Source of the DNA: a virus
Lineage: Duplodnaviria; Heunggongvirae; Uroviricota; Caudoviricetes
Length of the DNA: 64,000 bases
Reading direction: 5' to 3' (one strand)
IMG/VR virus record: IMGVR_UViG_2974697560_000001
Below are positions 12,704 to 46,456 of the stretch, in pieces. Position numbers and translations under genes: made by a program. Below the pieces are notes generated by a model, which was given only the letters and a program-made list of their open reading frames with translations, made no database searches and had not been told where the DNA came from. Each line of letters starts with the position of its first letter. Position 1 is the first letter of the stretch.

Positions 12704-13309
12704 ATGACTGACGTAGATATTGTTCTTATCGTAGACCGCTCTGGTAGCATGTCTAGGATTAAGGACGAGGCAGAAGGTGCCCTCAACAGGTTCCTTGATG
12801 AACAGCAGAATGTTGAGGGTGATGTTTTTGTCACCTACGTGCAGTTTGATGATGTATACGAAACCAAGTTTGAGAAGGTTGGTCTTGCCAATGCGGTTGG
12901 TACAGTAAGTATTCAGCCTCGTGGCATGACTGCCCTTCTTGACGCAATCGGTAAGACCGTAGTAAACTATGTACCACAGACCAAGAAGACAATCTACGTC
13001 ATCATGACTGATGGCCTGGAGAACGCTTCTCAGGAGTGGACAGTAGAAACGGTCAACCAGCTCGTTACGGAATCAAAGCAGCACGGTGACGAATTCGTAT
13101 ACCTCGGTGCCAATCAGGACGCCATCGCAGTAGGCTCAAAGCTGGGAATCCCTGTGGCTTCCAGCCTAACGTTCGCTGCGGACAAGGCAGGACTTGACGC
13201 GGTATCAAGGAGTATGACAAGCTATGTAACAGCGACTCGCTCTGGACTCGCCTACGAGTTCACTGATGAGGACCGTAAGAACGCTACAGGCTTGACAGAC
13301 AGCGAGTGA
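12704..13309 (+). CDS. von Willebrand factor A domain protein
   Basis: DIVLIVDRSGSM MIDAS motif. Confidence 0.7.
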   Translation: MTDVDIVLIVDRSGSMSRIKDEAEGALNRFLDEQQNVEGDVFVTYVQFDDVYETKFEKVGLANAVGTVSIQPRGMTALLDAIGKTVVNYVPQTKKTIYVIMTDGLENASQEWTVETVNQLVTESKQHGDEFVYLGANQDAIAVGSKLGIPVASSLTFAADKAGLDAVSRSMTSYVTATRSGLAYEFTDEDRKNATGLTDSE

Positions 13310-15167: not shown

Positions 15168-15689
15168 ATGACGGTACTCCTAAGAACAATTCATGGTTCG
15201 CATCTGTACGGTCTCGCTCACGCAGGTTCGGATAAAGACATCTACGAAGTAGTTGCTACGAAGCGGACCAAGCGGAAGCGCAATATTAAGCAAACCATCG
15301 TGAATGGAATTGACAAGACGGTCGTTGACCTCTCGACATTCATGCACATGGTTGACGAATGCGTACCTCAAGCACTTGAAGCGCTATGGACGCCGGTACC
15401 AGATGTGGATGAAATCCACCAGTTCCGGACACAATATCGAGTGAATCGCGCCAAGATGAAGGAAGTATACATTCGTACTGCTCTGAACTTCGCCAAGCAT
15501 GAAGACGTAAAACGAAAGCGACATGCTATTCGTCTCCTTCTAAACCTTGGTGAGGCCCTGGAATACGGTAAGTTTAATCCAAGGCTGTCCACTATGGACA
15601 AGTTCATTCTCCGCTCATCACTCGGAGAATCTGGAGCATATGAGGATGTCTTTCTGGGCGTTCTCGATGAAGTGCAAAAGTGGGTCTGA
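15168..15689 (+). CDS. minimal nucleotidyltransferase (Pol-beta/MNT-like fold)
   Basis: HGSHLYGLAHAGSDKDIY matches the GS...SDxD NTase signature. Confidence 0.55.
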   Translation: MTVLLRTIHGSHLYGLAHAGSDKDIYEVVATKRTKRKRNIKQTIVNGIDKTVVDLSTFMHMVDECVPQALEALWTPVPDVDEIHQFRTQYRVNRAKMKEVYIRTALNFAKHEDVKRKRHAIRLLLNLGEALEYGKFNPRLSTMDKFILRSSLGESGAYEDVFLGVLDEVQKWV

Positions 15690-15702: not shown

Positions 15703-15779
15703 TGGGGCGTATACCCTCACTCTGATAAAGTGTAGAAAGGTTAATCGGTTACATGTGGGTTCAATTCCCACCGTCCCAA
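15703..15779 (+). tRNA. tRNA-like element; T-arm and acceptor are clear, D/anticodon fold unresolved (possible GAT loop)
   Basis: acceptor TGGGGCG/CGTCCCA, T-arm GTGGG-TTCAATT-CCCAC, CACT-CTGATAA-AGTG hairpin. Confidence 0.3.
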
Positions 15780-17991: not shown

Positions 17992-18168
17992 CTTGTGGGT
18001 CGAAGATGATTGTTTATCTTCAAATCAGCGTGTTGGGGGTTCGAATCCTCCCTGGGGACTTCATTGTCCTCGGTAACTCAATGGCAGAGTAGCTGACATT
18101 GCCCGAATGGGCTAGACGATTGTCACACCTTATCCACATTACAAACAACTACTAACTAAGGAATAACC

Positions 18169-23617: not shown

Positions 23618-25270
23618 ATGTCAAACGCACTTAACACTGCTGCCAAGGGTCTGAACAAGACTCCTCAGTCTCAGAAGGCTAAGGCAGGTCAGGTAAAGAA
23701 CAACGCTGGTGGATTCGTCTTCCAGGTTTCTGACCAGGCTCGCCTAGAGCGATTCCTGATTCTGGGTGTTGATGGTGGCACATATTACGTCAAGGAGAGC
23801 ACTCACGCTCGTTCCAACGTACAATTCCTCAACGAGATGATTGAGCGAGACGAAGCCTCTGTACTGAACACCATTGTGGACGTGTCCGTCAATGGTCGTG
23901 CATACAAGCAGTCTCCTGCCCTGTTCGCTCTAGCCTCTGTCATTGCCAATGGTAAGGACAAGCAGGCGGTCAAGGCGGTATTCAATCGTGTCGTTCGTAC
24001 AGGCACTCACCTGTATGAGCTTCTGAACTACCTTACTTCAATGAACGTTGGATGGGGTCGTTCAAAGCGAGAGATTGTTGCTTCTTGGTTCGACCGAGAT
24101 GCTGACAAGCTGGCTTACCAGGCGGTCAAGTACCGTTCTCGTAAGTTTGGTGAGCAGACTTGGACGCTCCGAGACGTAATGCGTCTTTCCCACCCACGAG
24201 ATGTGAACACATCTGTTGCAGATTTCGTTCTCGGCAAGCCTCACGATGCTACCGATGACCTTCGGGTTATCGAGGGCTTCAAGAAGATGCAGAGGGCTCA
24301 GTCTGTCGAGGACGTTCACAGCGTTCTCCGTGAGTACGAGATACTTTCATGGGAGACAATCCCAACTCAGTTCCTCAAGGACGTGAGTGTATGGAAGCGA
24401 ATCTTCGCTAACGGACAGCTCCGTGGCCAGGCTCTTGTTCGAAACATCACTCGCCTTGCGCGAATTGGTGCTTTCCAGGACATGCGCTTTGCTGCTGCGT
24501 ATGCAGGACAGCTCACAAATCAGGAGATGATTGTACAGACTCGTCTGCACCCAATCAACTTCCTGAATGCGTCTGTCGTGTACAACGAAGGCCAGATGAA
24601 GACCGTAAGGGACCGCTGGGGCTTCGAGCGCGAGGAGCGTGTAAAGGACTGGACAACTGAGAGTGTTATTGCGGATGCCCTCAATGAGGGATTCCACAAG
24701 GCATTCAAGGCTGTCGAGCCTGCCGGTAAGCGAACGATGCTGGCTCTGGATGTATCAGGCTCCATGAGTGCAAAGGCTAACGGTCTCGACCTTAGCTGTG
24801 CTCAGGTTTCTGCTGCAATGTCTATGGCCATTGCTCGTACCGAGCCTGCTCACATCATCCGTGGATTCACGTCCAATGGATATGGCTGGTCTGGTCGCAA
24901 CAGTGACCTCACCGACCTTGGTATCAGCGCTAAGACAGACCTTGCTACGGCAATGCGTAATGTCCAGCGTCATAACTGGGGCGGTACGGACTGTAGCCTT
25001 CCAATGCGTTGGGCTCTGGACCGTGGAATTGAAGTAGACACGTTCATCATTATCACCGATAATGACACGTGGGCTGGTGAAATCCACCCATTCCAGGCGC
25101 TCAAGGAGTACCGTAAGAAGACTGGCATTCCAGCTCGTCTGGCAGTTCTGGGAGTTCAGGCAACTGAATTCACCATCGCTGACCCAAGCGATGCAGGAAT
25201 GATGGACTTCGTAGGGTTTGACAGCAATGCACCTCGCGTGCTGGCTGACTTCTCCGCAGGTCGCATCTGA
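23618..25270 (+). CDS. rsr: Ro60-related protein (TROVE domain) with C-terminal vWA/MIDAS domain
   Basis: GGFVFQVSDQARLERFLILGVDGGTYYVKE TROVE N-terminus; LALDVSGSM MIDAS; 550 aa. Confidence 0.85.
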   Translation: MSNALNTAAKGLNKTPQSQKAKAGQVKNNAGGFVFQVSDQARLERFLILGVDGGTYYVKESTHARSNVQFLNEMIERDEASVLNTIVDVSVNGRAYKQSPALFALASVIANGKDKQAVKAVFNRVVRTGTHLYELLNYLTSMNVGWGRSKREIVASWFDRDADKLAYQAVKYRSRKFGEQTWTLRDVMRLSHPRDVNTSVADFVLGKPHDATDDLRVIEGFKKMQRAQSVEDVHSVLREYEILSWETIPTQFLKDVSVWKRIFANGQLRGQALVRNITRLARIGAFQDMRFAAAYAGQLTNQEMIVQTRLHPINFLNASVVYNEGQMKTVRDRWGFEREERVKDWTTESVIADALNEGFHKAFKAVEPAGKRTMLALDVSGSMSAKANGLDLSCAQVSAAMSMAIARTEPAHIIRGFTSNGYGWSGRNSDLTDLGISAKTDLATAMRNVQRHNWGGTDCSLPMRWALDRGIEVDTFIIITDNDTWAGEIHPFQALKEYRKKTGIPARLAVLGVQATEFTIADPSDAGMMDFVGFDSNAPRVLADFSAGRI

Positions 25271-34483: not shown

Positions 34484-35272
34484 ATGGGTTTTCTGCGTAA
34501 GATGAAGAACTTCACGCCTGCTGCTAACCTGTCTGCGAAGAAGACGGTTACGCTGACTCGAATCAATTCTGGTCAGCCTGCTGCAAACGTGAGCCTCATC
34601 AAGCAGAACGGCGTTTCCTTCGAGAAGAAGGTTCAGAGCGCTGTTAAGCTCCAGAAGAACCTGGGTGTCGATAACCGATTCGACGTTATTGCTCTAATTG
34701 ACGAGTCTTACTCCATGGATGGCCTCTTCGCTGATGGCACCGTTCAGGCAATTGCTGAGCGAGCCCTTGCGTGGACTGCTGGTGTGGATGCGGACGGCAT
34801 GGCCCCTGTCGGTGGCTTTGCGAACGGATTCAAGTGGCATGGTGAGATTGACCTCACCAACGTCATGGGATGCGCGTCAAGTTGGGGAACCTGGGGTGGA
34901 ACTGACCTGGCTGCTGGTCTTAAGGCTGCATTTGAGGTTGCGAAGGGTGCTGACAATCCTGTCTATCTCTTCGTTGTCACCGATGGTGCTCCTAACGACC
35001 GACAGGCAGTAGTGAAGCTGGTCAAGGAGATGTCTCAGTATCCTATCTTCATCAAGTTCCTGCTCGTTGGCAATGACCGCAGCGGTAAGCAGTTCCTTGA
35101 GTACCTGGATGACCTTGAGACTCATGAGGGTGCCTCTCGTCTCTTCGACAACGTGGACACGCAGCACATCCAGAACGTCTCTCGTGTGAGCGATGACGAT
35201 TTCAACAAGGCCATGACTGAGGAAGTTCCTTCCGCCATTCAGGCAATGCGTGGAGTCGGCCTGGTTCGCTGA
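34484..35272 (+). CDS. von Willebrand factor A domain protein
   Basis: VIALIDESYSMDG MIDAS; VVTDGAPND; aactaggag RBS. Confidence 0.65.
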   Translation: MGFLRKMKNFTPAANLSAKKTVTLTRINSGQPAANVSLIKQNGVSFEKKVQSAVKLQKNLGVDNRFDVIALIDESYSMDGLFADGTVQAIAERALAWTAGVDADGMAPVGGFANGFKWHGEIDLTNVMGCASSWGTWGGTDLAAGLKAAFEVAKGADNPVYLFVVTDGAPNDRQAVVKLVKEMSQYPIFIKFLLVGNDRSGKQFLEYLDDLETHEGASRLFDNVDTQHIQNVSRVSDDDFNKAMTEEVPSAIQAMRGVGLVR

Positions 35273-36425: not shown

Positions 36426-36497
36426 GCATGTAAGCCAGGGATAAGCTAGGCGGGCCTGTAAAGCCCTACCTCGATGGTTCGAATCCGTCTACATGCA
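36426..36497 (+). tRNA. second GTA-anticodon tRNA with a class-I 5-nt variable arm
   Basis: acceptor GCATGTA/TACATGC exact, loop CTGTAAA, T-arm GATGG-TTCGAAT-CCGTC; D and anticodon stems each have a mismatch. Confidence 0.5.
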
Positions 36498-37954: not shown

Positions 37955-38188
37955 ATGCACGAAATTGACCGGTGGGAAGGAGAGGGTGGTCACTTGCATT
38001 ACGACCTAACTCATAGAGAACGATTGATGAAGATTCTCAAAGAGGCCGGTATTCGTTTCGAAGAAGATACATTTGGAGAGGAAGGAACAGACCAAGATAT
38101 AACTGTCTATCCGAACAACGATGAGAGAGTCTATTTCTCCTTTCATCCAGACGGATTCCTCAGCGATATCAACGTCTTTTATTCATGA
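37955..38188 (+). CDS. hypothetical protein
   Basis: ORF track 77 aa. Confidence 0.45.
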   Translation: MHEIDRWEGEGGHLHYDLTHRERLMKILKEAGIRFEEDTFGEEGTDQDITVYPNNDERVYFSFHPDGFLSDINVFYS

Positions 38189-38742
38189 AAACATTCTATG
38201 ACACAGAATTTTTGGAGACTGGGCCAGAGGAGCCTACTAGGTTCATCAGTCTAGGGGCTGTGCGTGAGGATGGTGAGGAGCTGTATCTCATCACTAACAA
38301 CCTCTACGTGCTCAACAGAGCAAATGAGAATGAGTGGATGAGGGAGAACGTCATCTCTCAGTTGCCAGTAAAGCAGGCGGCCTCTGGTGGCCTTGCTTGG
38401 GACACTCAGCATCCTGACTACGCAAGGGTACTTCCCAACGAAGCGATTGCTGGACTATGGAGAGATTTTGTTCTCGACTATGAGCCTCGCTACGAGTTTG
38501 ACACGCCAGAGCTATGGGCCTACTATGGAGCCTATGACCACTACGTGGCCAGCCAGCTCTTTGGTTGCATGAGGTTCTTGCCAGATGGCATGCCGATGTA
38601 TACTATGGACATCAAGCAGCGCTGGCACAATGAAGGTAAGCCTAGTCTGCCTCCACAAGAGGGCACGGAGCACAACGCTCTTGACGACGCCCGGTGGAAT
38701 AAGGTAGCATATGAGTACCTTGATGAGTACGCCAATCGGTGA
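38185..38742 (+). CDS. DnaQ-like (DEDDh) 3'-5' exonuclease
   Basis: FYDTEF Exo I-like motif; HNALDDARWNKVAYEYL Exo III-like motif. Confidence 0.6.
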   Translation: MKTFYDTEFLETGPEEPTRFISLGAVREDGEELYLITNNLYVLNRANENEWMRENVISQLPVKQAASGGLAWDTQHPDYARVLPNEAIAGLWRDFVLDYEPRYEFDTPELWAYYGAYDHYVASQLFGCMRFLPDGMPMYTMDIKQRWHNEGKPSLPPQEGTEHNALDDARWNKVAYEYLDEYANR

Positions 38743-42408: not shown

Positions 42409-42593
42409 TGCAACTCAAGATGTACGCGATTGCCTGTGACCAAGCAGAAGCTATTAAAAACTGCTACACAGGCAAATACACAAATCAACCATTCTGGCCA
42501 GAGCATAAGACTCTGGTACCATATCTAGAAAAGGCCAAGGAAGAGAATCCTGGCCTTCCACTAAAAATCTTTGTGATTAAGGTGAGTGGATAA
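42390..42593 (+). CDS. hypothetical protein
   Basis: ORF track 67 aa. Confidence 0.4.
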   Translation: MGRLSLMQLKMYAIACDQAEAIKNCYTGKYTNQPFWPEHKTLVPYLEKAKEENPGLPLKIFVIKVSG

Positions 42594-42855
42594 ATTGGCC
42601 GGAAACAAGAACAGCCGTAAGAAGTGGCTTTGCCTTGACTGTGGTGTTGACACTGGCAGGATTGGCGAACACTTCTTTCTCGACATGAGCGTCTGGTCCT
42701 TGACAGGACTTGGACACGAAGGTATGCTCTGTGTAGAGCACGTTGAGAAGAGAATCGGCAGGCGTCTTGTTCCGGCCGATTTTACGTCCGCCTACATCAA
42801 CCGCTTGAACTTCGGGTTCAAGTCTGATAGGCTCATCGAGAGGATGAAGGGATGA
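42586..42855 (+). CDS. hypothetical Cys/His-rich protein
   Basis: ORF track 89 aa. Confidence 0.4.
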   Translation: MDKLAGNKNSRKKWLCLDCGVDTGRIGEHFFLDMSVWSLTGLGHEGMLCVEHVEKRIGRRLVPADFTSAYINRLNFGFKSDRLIERMKG

Positions 42856-43025
42856 GACACAGTCCACACTGCACCTTCCCAGGTTGCAAGGGTGACTGTC
42901 TAATCACCATCACGATTGACCCACGCTGTCTGAAAGCTCTGCTAGACTTGAACAGAAGCAGAATCAAGACCGGTACAGTGGGAGAAGCATACGCACTTCG
43001 TACTCTGCGAGATGCGGTAAAGTAA
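42852..43025 (+). CDS. small hypothetical protein
   Basis: 57 aa; ATGA overlap coupling. Confidence 0.35.
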   Translation: MRHSPHCTFPGCKGDCLITITIDPRCLKALLDLNRSRIKTGTVGEAYALRTLRDAVK

Positions 43026-43041
43026 CTAACAAGGAGGACCG

Positions 43042-44142
43042 ATGAAGTTCACCAAGATTTTCTCTCAGGACTTGCTTGACCAGATGGTCAACGAGGGCTT
43101 TGTTCGGGTGCAGACTCATCCGGTTCTCCCTCTGCGAATCCTGAACTACTCCGAGAAGGCGCAGTTCGCTGGCAAGTGGAACGCATGTACGCTTGCTTGT
43201 CGTGGCCTTATCATTGACGAGTTTGACAACGTCATTGCTCGTCCGTTTGAGAAGTTCTTCAACATGGGGGACTCTCATGCTGCTGACATTGACTGGAACG
43301 CTCCGGTTGAGGTTACGGACAAGAAGGACGGCTCTATGGGCATCCTTTACTCCGTAATGCCTTACAGTGACGCGATTCCGCCTTACGGATTCCAGTACGG
43401 AATTGCTACGCGAGGCTCTTTCCAGTCTGACCAGGCAATCCACGCCACGAAGCTGTGGCTGGAGCGCTACAAGAACACTGCCGTCCCTCACGACTGGACG
43501 TTCATTTTCGAGATTGTCTACCCTGACAACCGAATCGTCCTGGACTACGGGGACATGGATGACCTTATCCTTCTGGGTGCGGTAAACAAGGAGCACGGCT
43601 ACGTGTATGGTCCTCGTGAGGCTTCGGTTTTGCTGGATTGGCAGGGGCCGGTGACCGAGGTGTTTGATTACAAGAACATTCACGAGGCTGTTGGTGCGGA
43701 CTACCGTCCCAACGCTGAGGGTCTTGTAATCCGCTCTGGCTCTAAGATGGTCAAGCTAAAGCAGGCTGACTATGTTGAGCTGCACCGACTGATTTCAATG
43801 CTTTCAGAGCGCTCTGTATGGAGTCAGCTCACTGAGGGCAAGACGATTCTGGAGATTTGTGAGGCTCTGCCTGACGAGTTCCACCAGTTCGTCAAGGATG
43901 TCGGTGGCAAGCTGCTCAGCGACTACGAGGAGATTGAAATTAAGGTGCGTGGAATCTTCCACAACCTTCTTTCCTCAATGGATGAGGGCTTCACACGACG
44001 TGACTTCGCAATGAAGGCCAACGGTGTGGACCTCTACCGTAGCCACATGTTCAACCTGCTTGACGGCAAGAGCATCGATGAGCTAATCTGGAAGCAGCTC
44101 AAGCCCGCTGCAAAGACGGAGGATGGCTACCCTGTTGGGTAG
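43042..44142 (+). CDS. RNA ligase, T4 Rnl1 (RnlA)-like
   Basis: CRGLIIDEFDNVIARPFEKFFNMGD aligns to the Rnl1 N-terminal signature; TDKKDGSMG is a KxDG adenylation motif; 366 aa. Confidence 0.8.
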   Translation: MKFTKIFSQDLLDQMVNEGFVRVQTHPVLPLRILNYSEKAQFAGKWNACTLACRGLIIDEFDNVIARPFEKFFNMGDSHAADIDWNAPVEVTDKKDGSMGILYSVMPYSDAIPPYGFQYGIATRGSFQSDQAIHATKLWLERYKNTAVPHDWTFIFEIVYPDNRIVLDYGDMDDLILLGAVNKEHGYVYGPREASVLLDWQGPVTEVFDYKNIHEAVGADYRPNAEGLVIRSGSKMVKLKQADYVELHRLISMLSERSVWSQLTEGKTILEICEALPDEFHQFVKDVGGKLLSDYEEIEIKVRGIFHNLLSSMDEGFTRRDFAMKANGVDLYRSHMFNLLDGKSIDELIWKQLKPAAKTEDGYPVG

Positions 44143-44305
44143 CCTCCCATAACAAGGAGAATAAATTGTCTGACGCCACTCGCACTGCCGATGAGGCTGT
44201 TTCAAATGCTAAGCTCATTGGCATGGCTGTTTGGTCTTGGCTGAGTTCCCATCCTGCGGTTCTCGCCATTCTGTTCTTCGTACTTGGCTTCATGATTGGC
44301 TAAGC

Positions 44306-44485
44306 ATGAGGAATGTATTTAGGGCGGCAGCCCAAAAGGCTGTACGCGAAGGTATATGTACCCCAGTCATAGGCTGTGGTCAGCCTATTCGAGATGAGGA
44401 TTTCAATGACGAAGAGTCTTTGCGAGAGTCCCGTATCTCAGGTCTCTGTCAGTCCTGTCAAGATAGGATTTACGGAGACCTCTGA
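44306..44485 (+). CDS. small Cys-containing hypothetical protein
   Basis: ATG-initiated C-terminal part of listed ORF 44231..44485. Confidence 0.35.
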   Translation: MRNVFRAAAQKAVREGICTPVIGCGQPIRDEDFNDEESLRESRISGLCQSCQDRIYGDL

Positions 44486-44589
44486 GGTCAGGATGGGCGA
44501 AGAGGCATTTCGATGCTCATCCTGTCAATATCAGTTTCCGTACCATTCGGATGACTGTCCGTACAACATGAACAACCAGAAGTAGCAAA

Positions 44590-44612
44590 AGGGCCCTTCG
44601 GGGCCCTTTTTG
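44590..44612 (+). terminator. rho-independent terminator AAGGGCCC-TTCG-GGGCCCTT-TTT
   Basis: read directly. Confidence 0.8.
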
Positions 44613-44620
44613 CGTAGGGG

Positions 44621-44649
44621 TTGACGCGGCCTGTCTGTTCGACTAGAGT
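44621..44649 (+). promoter_or_regulatory. promoter TTGACG-N17-TAGAGT(AGAG)
   Basis: recurring motif copy, directly upstream of the kinase/phosphatase gene. Confidence 0.6.
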
Positions 44650-44676
44650 AGAGCTAACAACAACGAAGGGAAAGAC

Positions 44677-45582
44677 ATGGCAACGCTTCTCATTCTCCGG
44701 GGTGTCCCTGGATGTGGTAAGAGCACTTTCGCCCATCAGTGGCTCATGGAGGGCGAGCGACGTGCCCGTGTAAACCGTGATGACATCCGTATGCAGTTCT
44801 TCGGCAAGGAGACTGGTGTGGATGAGAACATGGTTACACAAATTGAGCATATGCAGGTTGACAGTCTGCTTAAGGCTGGATACTCTGTGGTGGTCGATGA
44901 CACGAACATCCGCCACGCTTACATCAAGGCTTTCGTCAAGATTGCCAGTAAGCATGGTGTGCCTGTTGCGGTAAAGCAGTTCGATGTGGACCTCAAGGTT
45001 GCCATTGAGCGCAATGCTGGCCGGGCGGCACAGGGTGGTCGTGACGTTCCTACTCCTGTCATTGAGAAGATGCACAAGTCTCTCAAGTCAAGTGGACAGT
45101 TCACGCGCAAGCTGATTGAGGAAAGCTACTGTAGCTCTCCTGTTGGCAAGCCTTACGTTCGGCCGGTAGGCAAGCGGAAGATTTACCTCTTTGACATTGA
45201 TGGTACTCTTGCCAGCATGTCTGACAGGTCTCCGTTTGACTGGTCTCGCGTAGGAGAGGATGACCCTCGTAGGCAGGTCGTACTAACTGCTCAGGCACTC
45301 GCAGAGGCAGGTTACGACATTGTAGTTATGAGTGGTCGTGACTCTAGCTGCCGTGAAGAAACAATCGCTTGGCTGGAGTTCTACGATGTTCCTTTCTGTG
45401 ACCTCTTCATGAGGGCAGAGGGTGACATGCGTAAGGACAACATCGTCAAGCAGGAATTGTTTGACCAGCACATCCGTGACTTCTACGATGTTGTGGCCGT
45501 CTTTGACGACCGCCAGCAAGTAGTTGACATGTGGCGTGACATGGGCGTAGACTGCTTCCAGGTTGCGCCTGGAGATTTCTGA
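44677..45582 (+). CDS. polynucleotide 5'-kinase/3'-phosphatase (T4 Pnk-like)
   Basis: N-terminal GVPGCGKST P-loop kinase; C-terminal IYLFDIDGTL HAD DxDGT phosphatase. Confidence 0.8.
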   Translation: MATLLILRGVPGCGKSTFAHQWLMEGERRARVNRDDIRMQFFGKETGVDENMVTQIEHMQVDSLLKAGYSVVVDDTNIRHAYIKAFVKIASKHGVPVAVKQFDVDLKVAIERNAGRAAQGGRDVPTPVIEKMHKSLKSSGQFTRKLIEESYCSSPVGKPYVRPVGKRKIYLFDIDGTLASMSDRSPFDWSRVGEDDPRRQVVLTAQALAEAGYDIVVMSGRDSSCREETIAWLEFYDVPFCDLFMRAEGDMRKDNIVKQELFDQHIRDFYDVVAVFDDRQQVVDMWRDMGVDCFQVAPGDF

Positions 45583-45584
45583 CA

Positions 45585-45606
45585 GAAGGGGCCTTCGGGC
45601 CCCTCT
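45585..45606 (+). terminator. hairpin GGGGCC-TTCG-GGCCCC
   Basis: read directly. Confidence 0.6.
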
Positions 45607-45640
45607 TGTCGTTTGGCCCGGTGTGGTGTAGGCTGTAGGC

Positions 45641-45946
45641 ATGACTTACAAAAACCCCGAGAACTATTTCAAAATCCTGGTTCGTCCCTATGGTCCCCTT
45701 CCTCAAACTGGGGAAGAGGATGTCAGGACATGGGCTGTTGCTGGTGTAACCCACTATGAAACTGGTGGAATGTACAACAAGCCTATCGGTGTGGTGGAGT
45801 ATATCCAGTTTGGCTTCAAGAACGAACAGGTTGCCAAAGCCTGGATGGACGAGTATCTTAGGATGTACGTCAAGGACGCACACTTCGACCAGTATATTGA
45901 AGGCTGGTTGTTCGAGCCACTTGACGAGAGCAAGACCACACGCTAA
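45641..45946 (+). CDS. hypothetical protein
   Basis: ORF track 101 aa. Confidence 0.45.
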   Translation: MTYKNPENYFKILVRPYGPLPQTGEEDVRTWAVAGVTHYETGGMYNKPIGVVEYIQFGFKNEQVAKAWMDEYLRMYVKDAHFDQYIEGWLFEPLDESKTTR

Positions 45947-45979
45947 GCTAGTACCAACAACAACGACGAAGGGTCGAAA

Positions 45980-46456
45980 ATGAACAAGCGAGTTGCTACC
46001 ACTGCCGTATCCGCTGCCGTTGCTGCTGGGATGGTCTTCGGACTCTCCGCATGTGGCTCCGAAGCCAGTGATGGGTTCAAGAAGAACTGCAAGGCGGCTG
46101 GTGGCCACATCGAACGAGAGAATGATTTCGAGTCTCTGGGAATGGCTCCCATGGCATTCACTGCTCCGAAGCCTCCTGCCCCTAAGCCTGCCGCGCCTGC
46201 GGTAAAGGCTCCTTCTGTTCCGAAGGCTCCCAAGCCTGCGGCTCCGAAGGTGGAGATTCCCAAGACACCGAAGCTTCCGAAGAACGACGCTCCGAAGTCA
46301 AACAAGACTCGGACTCCTTCTGTCACGGCTACGCCTAACAGCAATGGTCTGGCCTTCGGAACTTCCAAGAGCAAGAAGCGCAAGTCGAAGAAGGCTGATG
46401 ACAATGACTTCCTCTGCGTGAAGGACGGCAACGTCCTCTTCGAAGAGGATGAGTGA
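45980..46456 (+). CDS. lipoprotein with Ala/Pro/Lys-rich repeats
   Basis: VFGLSACGS lipobox; repeated APKPAAPK. Confidence 0.5.
   Translation: MNKRVATTAVSAAVAAGMVFGLSACGSEASDGFKKNCKAAGGHIERENDFESLGMAPMAFTAPKPPAPKPAAPAVKAPSVPKAPKPAAPKVEIPKTPKLPKNDAPKSNKTRTPSVTATPNSNGLAFGTSKSKKRKSKKADDNDFLCVKDGNVLFEEDE

What the first reader, a model, noticed from the sequence alone, without database searches (positions are those of the whole stretch)
43042..45606. T4-type tRNA repair module: Rnl1-family RNA ligase plus polynucleotide kinase/phosphatase
The 366-aa protein shows the T4 RnlA N-terminal signature (CRGLIIDEF...ARPFEKFFNMGD) and a KxDG adenylation motif. Two small genes downstream sits a bifunctional P-loop kinase / HAD phosphatase, which carries the TTGACG-N17-TAGAGT promoter and is flanked by strong terminators. 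In T4 this pair heals anticodon-nuclease (PrrC) cuts in tRNA-Lys. Together with the large tRNA complement, this points to pressure from host tRNA-targeting defences (PrrC, RloC, VapC-like, HEPN RNases).
Basis: partly seen in the sequence, partly recalled or inferred. Interest (0 to 1): 0.7.

Follow-up and report, generated by a model that had tools for sequence, protein, structure and literature searches.

The report
Phage RNA ligase plus end-healing kinase-phosphatase
This is a phage-encoded pair of enzymes of the kind phage T4 uses to mend tRNAs cut by bacterial defence nucleases; it is real and intact, but already annotated in this Streptomyces phage and common in phages, so it is ordinary.

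Summary
The window is 100% identical to Streptomyces phage Samisti12 (MF347639, cluster BE1). There, 43042-44142 is already annotated "RNA ligase" and 44677-45582 "polynucleotide kinase".

- **Ligase (366 aa).** It is homologous to T4 Rnl1 over both domains. All catalytic residues are kept: R54, K71, F73, K94-x-D96-G97, E157, E226/G227 and K238/K240.
- **Kinase-phosphatase (301 aa).** It is collinear with T4 Pnkp. All essential kinase residues (K15, S16, D35, R38, D75, R116) and phosphatase residues (D173, D175, R184, R221, D254, D278) are kept.
- **Signals.** The TTGACG-N17-TAGAGT promoter and the two flanking GC-rich hairpins are there. The promoter is one copy of a recurrent phage motif.
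- **Linkage.** A Pnkp gene lies within 10 kb of a ligase homologue in 42 of 81 related loci, usually directly downstream.

[quoted passage not shown] It is inferred from homology, not shown here. The host nuclease is unknown.

This is a divergent actinophage clade of a known system, so nothing is new in kind. Side observations: an RlaP nucleotidyltransferase, a Ro60 homologue, an unannotated YrlA-like RNA, and a probably mis-called small gene.

The parts
43042..44142 (+). Rnl1-family ATP-dependent RNA ligase, 366 aa (Samisti12 gp197). Adenylyltransferase domain about residues 1-242, helical C-domain about 243-355.
   Evidence: - Family matches: Pfam PF09511 1.5e-14; phrog_562 1e-83 over residues 2-360.
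- Solved structures: T4 Rnl1 1.9e-9 with the single sequence and 1.1e-25 with the family profile, aligned to T4 32-339.
- Model: AF2 pLDDT 90.3; Foldseek top hits are T4 Rnl1, then fungal Trl1-LIG.
- Residues: R54, K71, F73, K94, D96, G97, E157, E226, G227, K238 and K240 are invariant in 29 homologues and map to T4 R54, K75, F77, K99, D101, G102, E159, E227, G228, K240 and K242.
44166..44303 (+). Small ORF, 45 aa, hydrophobic C-terminal half (annotated gp198). Function unknown.
   Evidence: phrog_12781 1e-33. It is 74-82% identical in related BE1-type contigs at the same position.
44306..44485 (+). Small Cys-rich ORF, 59 aa (C-x5-C ... C-x2-C). Not annotated in the Samisti12 record. Function unknown.
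   Evidence: phrog_19722 1.6e-40. It is 83% identical in L006/L007 and 54-55% in L008/L009 over almost its full length.
44493..44585 (+). Short Cys-rich ORF, 30 aa (MGEEAFRCSSCQYQFPYHSDDCPYNMNNQK). It is the 3' part of annotated gp199 (44406-44585) and is preceded by GAGG.
   Evidence: The sequence is. In the more distant relative L008 only residues 35-58 of gp199 are conserved. The 5' part of gp199 overlaps the better-conserved ORF 44306-44485 in another frame.
44585..44613 (+). Intrinsic-terminator-like hairpin followed by UUUUU. It closes the ligase/small-gene unit.
   Evidence: Sequence. Fold of -20.8 kcal/mol, z-score -2.6.
44621..44649 (+). Sigma-70-like promoter TTGACG-N17-TAGAGT, 28 nt upstream of the Pnkp start codon.
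   Evidence: Found. It belongs to a recurrent motif: 13 matches against 1.56 expected, 12 on the + strand.
44677..45582 (+). Bifunctional polynucleotide 5'-kinase / 3'-phosphatase, 301 aa (Samisti12 gp200). P-loop kinase residues 1-140, HAD phosphatase residues 168-301.
   Evidence: - Family matches: PF25109 1e-53 and PF13671 2.5e-25; phrog_505 7e-105.
- Solved structures: 4xrp Pnkp1 6e-45 and T4 Pnkp 1ltq 1.2e-43, residues 4-301 to 4-301.
- Residues: T4 K15, S16, D35, R38, E57, D85, R126, D165, D167, R176, R213, D254 and D278 all have identical counterparts.
45580..45611 (+). GC-rich hairpin downstream of Pnkp (terminator-like, with an interrupted T-run).
   Evidence: Found. Fold of -22.1 kcal/mol, z-score -3.0.

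Best explanation
The two genes encode a T4-type RNA break-repair pathway carried by Streptomyces phage Samisti12.

**Proposed mechanism.**
1. A metal-independent host ribonuclease, such as an anticodon nuclease of the PrrC/RloC/HEPN kind or another ribotoxin, cuts a tRNA. This leaves a 2',3'-cyclic phosphate and a 5'-OH.
2. The HAD domain of Pnkp, acting through the D173 acyl-phosphate nucleophile, removes the cyclic/3' phosphate.
3. The P-loop domain of Pnkp (K15/S16, with D35 as general base) phosphorylates the 5'-OH.
4. The Rnl1-type ligase self-adenylylates on K94, transfers AMP to the 5'-phosphate and seals the nick. Its T4-like helical C-domain probably directs it to broken anticodon loops.

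**Transcription.** The ligase, with three tiny ORFs, and Pnkp are separate units. Pnkp has its own copy of the phage's recurrent TTGAC-N18-TAGAGT promoter and sits between hairpin terminators.

**Shown here.** Homology, intact active sites, domain architecture and conserved gene linkage.

**Inferred.** The enzymatic activities, tRNA as the substrate and the existence of a host nuclease.
For: - **Identity of the window.** It is 100% identical to MF347639, where the genes are annotated RNA ligase and polynucleotide kinase.
- **Ligase.** Pfam, PHROG, PDB and Foldseek all place it with T4 Rnl1. The profile alignment runs through the C-domain to T4 residue 339. TIGR02308 covers 31-341 of 373 model positions. 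The catalytic residues are invariant in 29 homologues.
- **Pnkp.** It is collinear with T4 Pnkp, and every residue listed as essential for the kinase in PMC2831316 is conserved. The phosphatase DxDGT motif and partner residues are conserved too.
- **Linkage.** 42 of 81 loci with a ligase homologue carry a Pnkp homologue within 10 kb. It is on the same strand in 41, and downstream, often within 50 nt, in 39. In a Nonomuraea prophage the two ORFs overlap by 4 nt.
- **Context.** The pair lies inside an array of 42 tRNA genes plus a tmRNA. The same phage encodes an RlaP RNA-repair nucleotidyltransferase and a Ro60 homologue.
- **Literature.** The same inference has been made for mycobacteriophage clusters J/E/L (PMC3706429) and for jumbo phages (PMC7824862).
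Against: - No activity data exist for this clade of ligase.
- The ligase scores far below the NCBIfam equivalog cutoff for T4 RnlA (63 against 242 bits) and is only about 21% identical to T4 Rnl1. Substrate specificity may therefore differ.
- The whole-chain TM-score to T4 Rnl1 is only 0.54, so the geometry of the C-domain is not confirmed.
- No tRNA-cleaving defence is known for the hosts, and none was searched for here.
- The surrounding tRNA set can be explained by codon usage alone, since phage G+C is about 20% below that of its hosts (PMC5764925).
- About half of the ligase-bearing loci show no Pnkp within 10 kb.
Confidence: 0.7

Rival explanations
1. The pair is a general RNA-damage repair or quality-control system rather than a tRNA-specific one. 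It would reseal any RNA (mRNA, rRNA, tmRNA, Y-like RNA) broken by ribotoxins or stress, working alongside the phage's Ro60, RlaP and exoribonuclease.
For: - The same phage encodes Ro60 (TROVE 6.5e-31 plus vWA_Ro60 4.6e-59), RlaP (8e-6) and an Rv2179c-like 3'-5' exoribonuclease (3e-6).
- It also has a YrlA-like RNA candidate.
- The ligase is a divergent clade, below the T4 RnlA equivalog cutoff.
Against: - The C-domain is homologous to that of T4 Rnl1. In T4 this domain confers specificity for broken anticodon loops (PMC6379707, conclusions).
- The genes are embedded in the tRNA array.
Confidence: 0.2
2. Pnkp, possibly with the ligase, heals DNA ends. It would restore 5'-phosphate and 3'-OH at DNA nicks during phage replication, recombination or repair of restriction damage.
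For: - T4 Pnkp acts on DNA as well as RNA (established knowledge; the kinase structures in PMC2831316 were solved with DNA oligonucleotides).
- The window also encodes many DNA-transaction proteins, including DnaE, RecA, resolvases and a Cas4-like nuclease.
Against: - Pnkp's conserved partner gene is an Rnl1-type RNA ligase, not a DNA ligase.
- The pair lies in the tRNA/RNA-gene region, more than 30 kb from the DNA-metabolism block.
Confidence: 0.05
3. The enzymes mature or recycle the phage's own RNAs, for example by joining split or permuted tRNA, tmRNA or Y-like transcripts. On this view they do not counter a host nuclease.
For: - The genes sit among 42 phage tRNA genes, a tmRNA and tRNA-like elements.
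Against: - ARAGORN and Rfam call the tRNAs and the tmRNA as contiguous, standard genes without introns or permutation.
- The same gene pair occurs in phages and prophages with few or no nearby tRNA genes, such as the Nonomuraea prophage.
Confidence: 0.04
4. The ligase homologue serves as a tail-fibre attachment factor, the second activity of T4 gp63, as the RefSeq product name suggests.
For: RefSeq and PHROG carry the name 'RNA ligase and tail fiber protein attachment catalyst'.
Against: - The name is inherited from T4.
- Samisti12 is a siphovirus (PMC5764925) without T4-type long tail fibres.
- The gene is not in a structural module, and its adenylyltransferase active site is strictly conserved.
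Confidence: 0.01

Closest known systems
Bacteriophage T4 Rnl1 (gp63, RnlA) plus T4 Pnkp (PseT): the tRNA-Lys restriction-repair pathway against PrrC
   Same: - The two-enzyme composition is the same.
- The ligase has the same N-subdomain, nucleotidyltransferase motifs I, III, IV and V, and a homologous helical C-domain.
- Pnkp has the same 301-aa kinase-then-HAD architecture, with every essential residue conserved and about 40% identity.
   Different: - The ligase is only about 21% identical and falls below the NCBIfam equivalog cutoff.
- In Samisti12 the genes are 0.5 kb apart on one strand. My recollection, not checked here, is that they are unlinked in T4.
- The host is a high-G+C actinobacterium and no cognate anticodon nuclease is known.
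- The phage also brings a full tRNA set.
Mycobacteriophage Omega/Cjw1-type Pnkp plus RNA ligase (clusters J, E, L)
   Same: - These are actinobacteriophages carrying a bifunctional Pnk, an RNA ligase and phage tRNAs. The combination has been proposed to repair RNA against host defence and to have co-evolved (PMC3706429, citing Zhu, Yin and Shuman 2004).
   Different: - In cluster J the two genes are not closely linked (Omega gp136 and gp162; PMC3706429). Here they are near neighbours.
- I did not compare the sequences directly, so it is untested whether the mycobacteriophage ligase belongs to the same Rnl1 clade.
Jumbo-phage RNA-repair kits (tRNAs + ATP-dependent RNA ligase + PNK-HAD + RlaP + TROVE/Ro), Iyer et al. 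2021, PMC7824862
   Same: - The inventory is the same. Samisti12 has the tRNA array, an Rnl1 ligase, a PNK-HAD Pnkp, RlaP and Ro60 with a tRNA-like Y RNA candidate.
   Different: - Samisti12 is a 134-kb siphovirus, below the jumbo size class.
- Its components are scattered through the tRNA array rather than forming one operon.
Capnocytophaga gingivalis Pnkp1 of the bacterial Pnkp1-Rnl-Hen1 repair complex (PDB 4xrp)
   Same: - It is the best solved-structure match to the Samisti12 Pnkp (6e-45, residues 3-301 to 12-312) and has the same kinase-HAD architecture.
   Different: - No Hen1 methyltransferase is annotated in the window.
- The partner ligase here is of the Rnl1 type.

Membership tests
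Rnl1 (T4 RnlA) RNA ligase family | Covalent nucleotidyltransferase motifs: I (KxDG lysine nucleophile), III, IV (EG) and V (KxK) | tested here: met
   K94-K-D96-G97, E157, E226-G227 and K238-x-K240 align with T4 K99, E159, E227/G228 and K240/K242. They are invariant in 29 homologues.
Rnl1 (T4 RnlA) RNA ligase family | Rnl1-type N-terminal subdomain that supplies ATP gamma-phosphate and adenine contacts (T4 Arg54, Lys75, Phe76/77; PMC6379707) | tested here: met
   R54, K71, F72 and F73 lie in CRGLII...RPFEKFFN. They are aligned to the T4 residues and invariant.
Rnl1 (T4 RnlA) RNA ligase family | The family-specific all-helical C-terminal domain. Ligase clades are defined by their appended domains (PMC6379707). 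| tested here: met
   - The profile-to-T4 Rnl1 alignment continues to T4 residue 339, including the conserved R-x2-[FY]A-x-[EK]A stretch.
- TIGR02308 covers 31-341/373 and phrog_562 covers 2-367/377.
- The AF2 model is all-helical from residue 242 to 352.
- Caveat: the whole-chain TM-score is only 0.54, so three-dimensional equivalence of the C-domain alone was not measured.
Rnl1 (T4 RnlA) RNA ligase family | Score above the curated NCBIfam equivalog threshold for T4 RnlA (TIGR02308) | tested here: not met
   63.4 bits against a cutoff of 242. The protein is homologous but a divergent clade, so functional equivalence is not guaranteed by this criterion. It passes the Pfam PF09511 cutoff (54.9 against 28.3).
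Rnl1 (T4 RnlA) RNA ligase family | ATP-dependent sealing of 3'-OH/5'-PO4 breaks in the tRNA anticodon loop | not testable with these tools
   This needs biochemistry.
T4-type bifunctional Pnkp | N-terminal P-loop 5'-kinase with GxxGxGKS and the essential residues Lys15, Ser16, Asp35, Arg38, Asp85, Arg126 (PMC2831316) | tested here: met
   G9-V-P-G-C-G-K15-S16, D35, R38, D75 and R116, plus E50 (= T4 E57), are identical at the aligned positions. AAA_33 2.5e-25.
T4-type bifunctional Pnkp | C-terminal HAD 3'-phosphatase with DxDGT and partner Arg/Asp residues. The T4 residues D165, D167, R176, R213, D254 and D278 are listed from my knowledge of Wang and Shuman 2002, which could not be opened. | tested here: met
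   D173-I-D175-G-T177, R184, S219, R221, D254, K258 and D277-D278 are identical to the aligned T4 residues. PF25109 HAD_PNKP 1e-53 covers 2-143/143.
T4-type bifunctional Pnkp | 5'-kinase and 2',3'-cyclic/3'-phosphatase activities on RNA ends | not testable with these tools
   This needs biochemistry.
Phage tRNA restriction-repair system (T4 versus PrrC) | Ligase and end-healing enzyme are co-encoded and evolutionarily linked | tested here: met
   A Pnkp homologue lies within 10 kb in 42 of 81 loci. It is on the same strand in 41. The ORFs overlap in a Nonomuraea prophage.
Phage tRNA restriction-repair system (T4 versus PrrC) | A host anticodon nuclease whose lesion the pair reverses | not tested
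The genome announcement mentions tRNA-degrading defences only as a possibility (PMC5764925).

The most novel reading that the evidence does not exclude
The Rnl1-Pnkp pair may be only the sealing step of a larger phage 'tRNA maintenance island'.

- **Proposed members.** The island would be scattered through the tRNA array. It would also use RlaP (15168-15689) to re-add nucleotides removed by RloC-type wobble excision, Ro60 (23618-25270) with an unannotated YrlA-like RNA (18009-18123), and perhaps a D-arm-less tRNA-like element (15703-15779) as scaffold or decoy.
- **Consequence.** A non-jumbo actinophage would then combine replacement, repair and quality control of tRNAs against several classes of tRNase.
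- **Status.** The co-occurrence is shown here. Functional cooperation is not.
Probability: 0.2. Interest if true: 0.5.

Novelty: already known. Interest (0 to 1): 0.15.

Why it matters
It adds little new knowledge.
- Both genes are already annotated in GenBank and RefSeq.
- Homologues of the ligase occur in about 1,400 phage records.
- The repair-versus-tRNase rationale has been published for T4, mycobacteriophages and jumbo phages.

Its modest value is as a clean, fully intact actinophage example. All catalytic residues are conserved, Pnkp has its own promoter and terminators, and the gene linkage is conserved. It sits next to a complete tRNA set, RlaP and Ro60/Y-like RNA.

That makes BE-cluster Streptomyces phages a convenient system for two questions:
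- Do replacement and repair of tRNAs act together?
- Which Streptomyces defences cut tRNA?

Tried and rejected
- **DNA-ligase or capping-enzyme placement of the first protein.** Rejected. DNA ligases appear only far down the Foldseek list (E >= 1e-4, nucleotidyltransferase core only), whereas T4 Rnl1 aligns full length.
- **Rnl2, Rnl3, Rnl5 or Rnl6 membership.** Rejected as the closest family. Trl1-LIG (Rnl6), the archaeal Rnl3 ligases and NgrRnl (Rnl5) all rank below T4 Rnl1. The profile search of the PDB finds only T4 Rnl1.
- **NCBIfam equivalog test.** The ligase fails the TIGR02308 cutoff. I keep it as a divergent Rnl1-family member, not an equivalog.
- **A Hen1 or RtcB partner.** None is annotated in the record stretches examined.
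- **The phosphatase mutagenesis paper (PMC100346).** It is not held in the library, so the phosphatase residue list rests on my knowledge plus the alignment.
- **Rfam gathering-threshold scan.** It gave only tRNAs and the tmRNA near the module. No structured RNA was found between the two genes apart from the terminator hairpin.
- **Host anticodon nucleases.** I did not search for them because no reliable PrrC/RloC query sequence was available.
- **Second structure job.** I did not use it to model the C-domain alone.
Full report
**Source and observation**

The stretch 42500-46000 of the window is 100% identical to Streptomyces phage Samisti12 (MF347639 / NC_042012). This is a 133.7-kb cluster BE1 siphovirus of the Stanwilliamsviridae. 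Window position equals record position minus 59,894. In that record, 43042-44142 is gp197 'RNA ligase' (RefSeq: 'RNA ligase and tail fiber protein attachment catalyst') and 44677-45582 is gp200 'polynucleotide kinase'.

- the 366-aa ORF with CRGLIIDEF...ARPFEKFFNMGD and KKDG;
- the 301-aa ORF with GVPGCGKS and FDIDGT;
- the promoter-like TTGACG-N17-TAGAGT at 44621-44649;
- GC-rich hairpins on both sides of the second gene, folding at -20.8 and -22.1 kcal/mol.

The promoter is not a chance match. TTGAC-N18-TAGAGT with at most one mismatch occurs 13 times in the window against 1.56 expected, and 12 of these are on the coding strand. Pnkp therefore has its own copy of a recurrent phage promoter.

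**The ligase**

- Pfam gives RNA_lig_T4_1 at 1.5e-14, 54.9 bits against a cutoff of 28.3.
- PHROG 562, the T4 gp63 family, matches at 1e-83 over residues 2-360.
- The single sequence finds only T4 Rnl1 among solved structures, at 1.9e-9.
- A profile of 29 homologues (A1) finds T4 Rnl1 at 1.1e-25. The alignment runs from T4 residue 32 to 339, well into the helical C-domain.
- An AlphaFold model built on A1 is confident (pLDDT 90.3, pTM 0.80) and all-helical from residue 242 to 352.
- Foldseek ranks T4 Rnl1 first at 6e-18, aligned over the whole chain. Fungal Trl1-LIG, archaeal Rnl3, NgrRnl and DNA ligases follow, the last group far behind.

The residues that define the chemistry are all present and invariant in the 29 homologues:

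| Samisti12 ligase | T4 Rnl1 | Role or motif |
|---|---|---|
| R54 | R54 | ATP contact, N-subdomain |
| K71 | K75 | ATP contact, N-subdomain |
| F72/F73 | F76/F77 | adenine contact, N-subdomain |
| K94-x-D96-G97 | K99-x-D101-G102 | motif I, lysine nucleophile |
| E157 | E159 | motif III |
| E226-G227 | E227-G228 | motif IV |
| K238-x-K240 | K240-x-K242 | motif V |

The roles of R54, K75 and F76 in T4 Rnl1, and the rule that ligase clades are defined by their appended domains, are taken from PMC6379707. That paper also states that the T4 C-domain confers specificity for broken anticodon loops.

There are two caveats:
- The protein is only about 21% identical to T4 Rnl1. It scores 63 bits against the NCBIfam T4-RnlA equivalog cutoff of 242.
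- The whole-chain TM-score is 0.54.

It is therefore a divergent actinophage clade of the Rnl1 family. Equivalent substrate specificity is inferred, not shown.

**The kinase-phosphatase**

- Pfam gives HAD_PNKP at 1e-53 (residues 168-301) and AAA_33 at 2.5e-25 (residues 4-136).
- PHROG 505 'polynucleotide kinase' matches at 7e-105.
- The best solved relatives are Capnocytophaga Pnkp1 (4xrp, 6e-45) and T4 Pnkp (1ltq, 1.2e-43). T4 Pnkp aligns 4-301 to 4-301.

A global alignment with T4 Pnkp shows about 40% identity (114 identical of 283 aligned positions). Every residue reported as essential for the kinase (Lys15, Ser16, Asp35, Arg38, Asp85, Arg126, plus Glu57; PMC2831316) is identical in the Samisti12 protein:

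| Domain | T4 Pnkp | Samisti12 Pnkp |
|---|---|---|
| kinase | K15, S16, D35, R38 | K15, S16, D35, R38 |
| kinase | E57, D85, R126 | E50, D75, R116 |
| phosphatase | D165, D167, T169, R176 | D173, D175, T177, R184 |
| phosphatase | S211, R213 | S219, R221 |
| phosphatase | D254, K258, D277, D278 | D254, K258, D277, D278 |

The phosphatase residues include the DxDGT nucleophile motif. The phosphatase residue list rests on my knowledge, because the primary paper could not be opened.

**Linkage**

The ligase family is large. 2,528 protein clusters match at E <= 1e-5, and 1,401 phage records match by tblastn, mostly T4-like phages plus 133 Streptomyces phages.

I examined 80 viral contigs carrying a relative of the ligase and one bacterial locus, 81 loci in all:
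- 42 have a Pnkp homologue within 10 kb.
- It is on the same strand in 41.
- It is downstream in 39, often within 50 nt.
- In five of the 42, only the kinase domain matches.

The bacterial case is a Nonomuraea prophage, flanked by an integrase and Bro-N/ANT genes. There the ligase and a 301-aa Pnkp overlap by 4 nt. The pairing is therefore evolutionarily conserved and not an accident of this genome.

**Mechanism**

The best-supported reading is the T4 pathway:
1. Pnkp's HAD domain removes the 2',3'-cyclic or 3' phosphate.
2. Its P-loop domain phosphorylates the 5'-OH left by a metal-independent ribonuclease.
3. The ligase seals the nick through ligase-AMP and AppRNA intermediates.

Homology, intact active sites and gene linkage are shown here. 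The activities, tRNA as the substrate and the existence of a host nuclease are inferred.

The same inference has already been published three times:
- for mycobacteriophage clusters J, E and L, which carry a Pnk, an RNA ligase and tRNAs (PMC3706429);
- for jumbo phages, which carry tRNAs, RNA ligases, PNK-HAD, RlaP and TROVE proteins (PMC7824862);
- for the tRNA set of these very BE1 phages (PMC5764925).

The BE1 paper also gives the rival explanation for the tRNA set, which is codon usage. Phage G+C is 50%, about 20% below that of its hosts.

I rate the rivals for the enzyme pair as follows:
- General RNA repair, not tRNA-specific: plausible, about 0.2.
- DNA-end healing: unlikely, because the conserved partner is an RNA ligase.
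- Maturation of phage RNAs: unlikely, because the tRNA and tmRNA genes are contiguous and standard.
- Tail-fibre attachment: very unlikely; the name is inherited from T4.

**Context noticed**

The pair lies inside an array of 42 tRNA genes, covering all 20 amino acids, plus a tmRNA. The same window encodes several other RNA-related features:
- an RlaP nucleotidyltransferase, PF10127, 8e-6 and above the curated cutoff. This family adds one or two nucleotides to damaged RNA 3' ends and restores the function of over-trimmed tRNA (preprint PMC12776372);
- a Ro60/Rsr homologue and an Rv2179c-like 3'-5' exoribonuclease;
- an unannotated YrlA-like RNA candidate directly after tRNA-Ile at 18009-18123, 33 bits against a gathering score of 69. 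It recurs at the syntenic position in divergent Loccivirinae phages at 34-38 bits. Compensatory changes are seen in the T-arm-like, middle and D-arm-like stems;
- a D-arm-less tRNA-like element directly after the RlaP gene.

Y RNAs near Ro60 genes in phages have been reported (PMC4201824), so this too is a member of a known kind.

**Small genes**

Between the two enzymes the record annotates gp198 (44166-44303) and gp199 (44406-44585). An unannotated 59-aa Cys-rich ORF at 44306-44485 is better conserved in relatives than the overlapping 5' part of gp199: 83% and 54-55% over its full length. In a distant relative, gp199 is conserved only after residue 35. This suggests that the true third gene is a 30-aa ORF starting at ATG 44493, which is preceded by GAGG.

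**Verdict**

However, the feature is already annotated, belongs to a well-known system and is widespread. It is of low interest as a discovery. It has modest value as an intact actinophage example embedded in an unusually complete tRNA and RNA-repair gene set.

Noticed in passing
window 18009-18123 (+): Unannotated YrlA-like (bacterial Y RNA) candidate directly 3' of tRNA-Ile(tat). Rfam RF02553 scores 33.1 bits against a gathering score of 69, matching the full model with T-arm-like and D-arm-like modules. The same element recurs after tRNA-Ile(gat) in the divergent phages Faust, Annadreamy and Blueeyedbeauty (34-38 bits), with compensatory base changes in three stems. The phage also encodes Ro60 (23618-25270)..
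   Followed up: partly
window 15168-15689 (+): The gene annotated only as 'nucleotidyltransferase' (gp106) matches PF10127 RlaP, the RNA-ligase-associated Pol-beta nucleotidyltransferase, at 8.4e-6 (26.1 bits against a cutoff of 23). RlaP is reported to add 1-2 nucleotides to damaged RNA 3' ends (PMC12776372). It is a likely accessory to the Rnl1/Pnkp repair pair..
   Followed up: partly
window 15703-15779 (+): tRNA-like element in the gap between the RlaP and FtsK-like genes. Rfam tRNA scores 30.8 bits, just above the gathering score. It was not called by ARAGORN and is not annotated. It has acceptor, anticodon (loop CUGAUAA) and T arms, but only 4 nt where the D-arm should be, and a long variable region..
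   Followed up: partly
window 23618-25270 (+): Ro60/Rsr homologue: TROVE 6.5e-31, vWA_Ro60 4.6e-59, and NCBIfam Rsr at 449 bits, below the equivalog cutoff of 900. Nearby are three vWA-domain proteins (12704-13309, 34484-35272) and an Rv2179c-like 3'-5' exoribonuclease (38185-38742) next to the tmRNA gene..
   Followed up: partly
window 44306-44585 (+): Probable annotation error. A conserved 59-aa Cys-rich ORF at 44306-44485 (phrog_19722, 1.6e-40) is not annotated. The annotated gp199 (44406-44585) overlaps it in another frame. Conservation in relatives favours the unannotated ORF plus a 30-aa ORF starting at 44493..
   Followed up: partly
window 36426-36497 (+): The GenBank record annotates a second tRNA-Tyr(gta) here (gp171). 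Neither ARAGORN nor the Rfam gathering-threshold scan reported it..
   Followed up: no
L085 947-1102, L086 997-1154, L087 991-1148: In the related Loccivirinae phages, a sub-threshold manA RNA motif match (RF01745, 45-46 bits against a gathering score of 55.2, E about 1e-9) lies directly after tRNA-Gln(ctg). No counterpart was reported in the Samisti12 window..
   Followed up: no
L011-L013, L015, L036 (about 0.3-1.2 kb downstream of the ligase homologue): In some related phage contigs, the gene downstream of the ligase matches only the kinase domain of Pnkp (query residues 1-139). The HAD phosphatase may be absent, replaced or encoded separately in those lineages..
   Followed up: no
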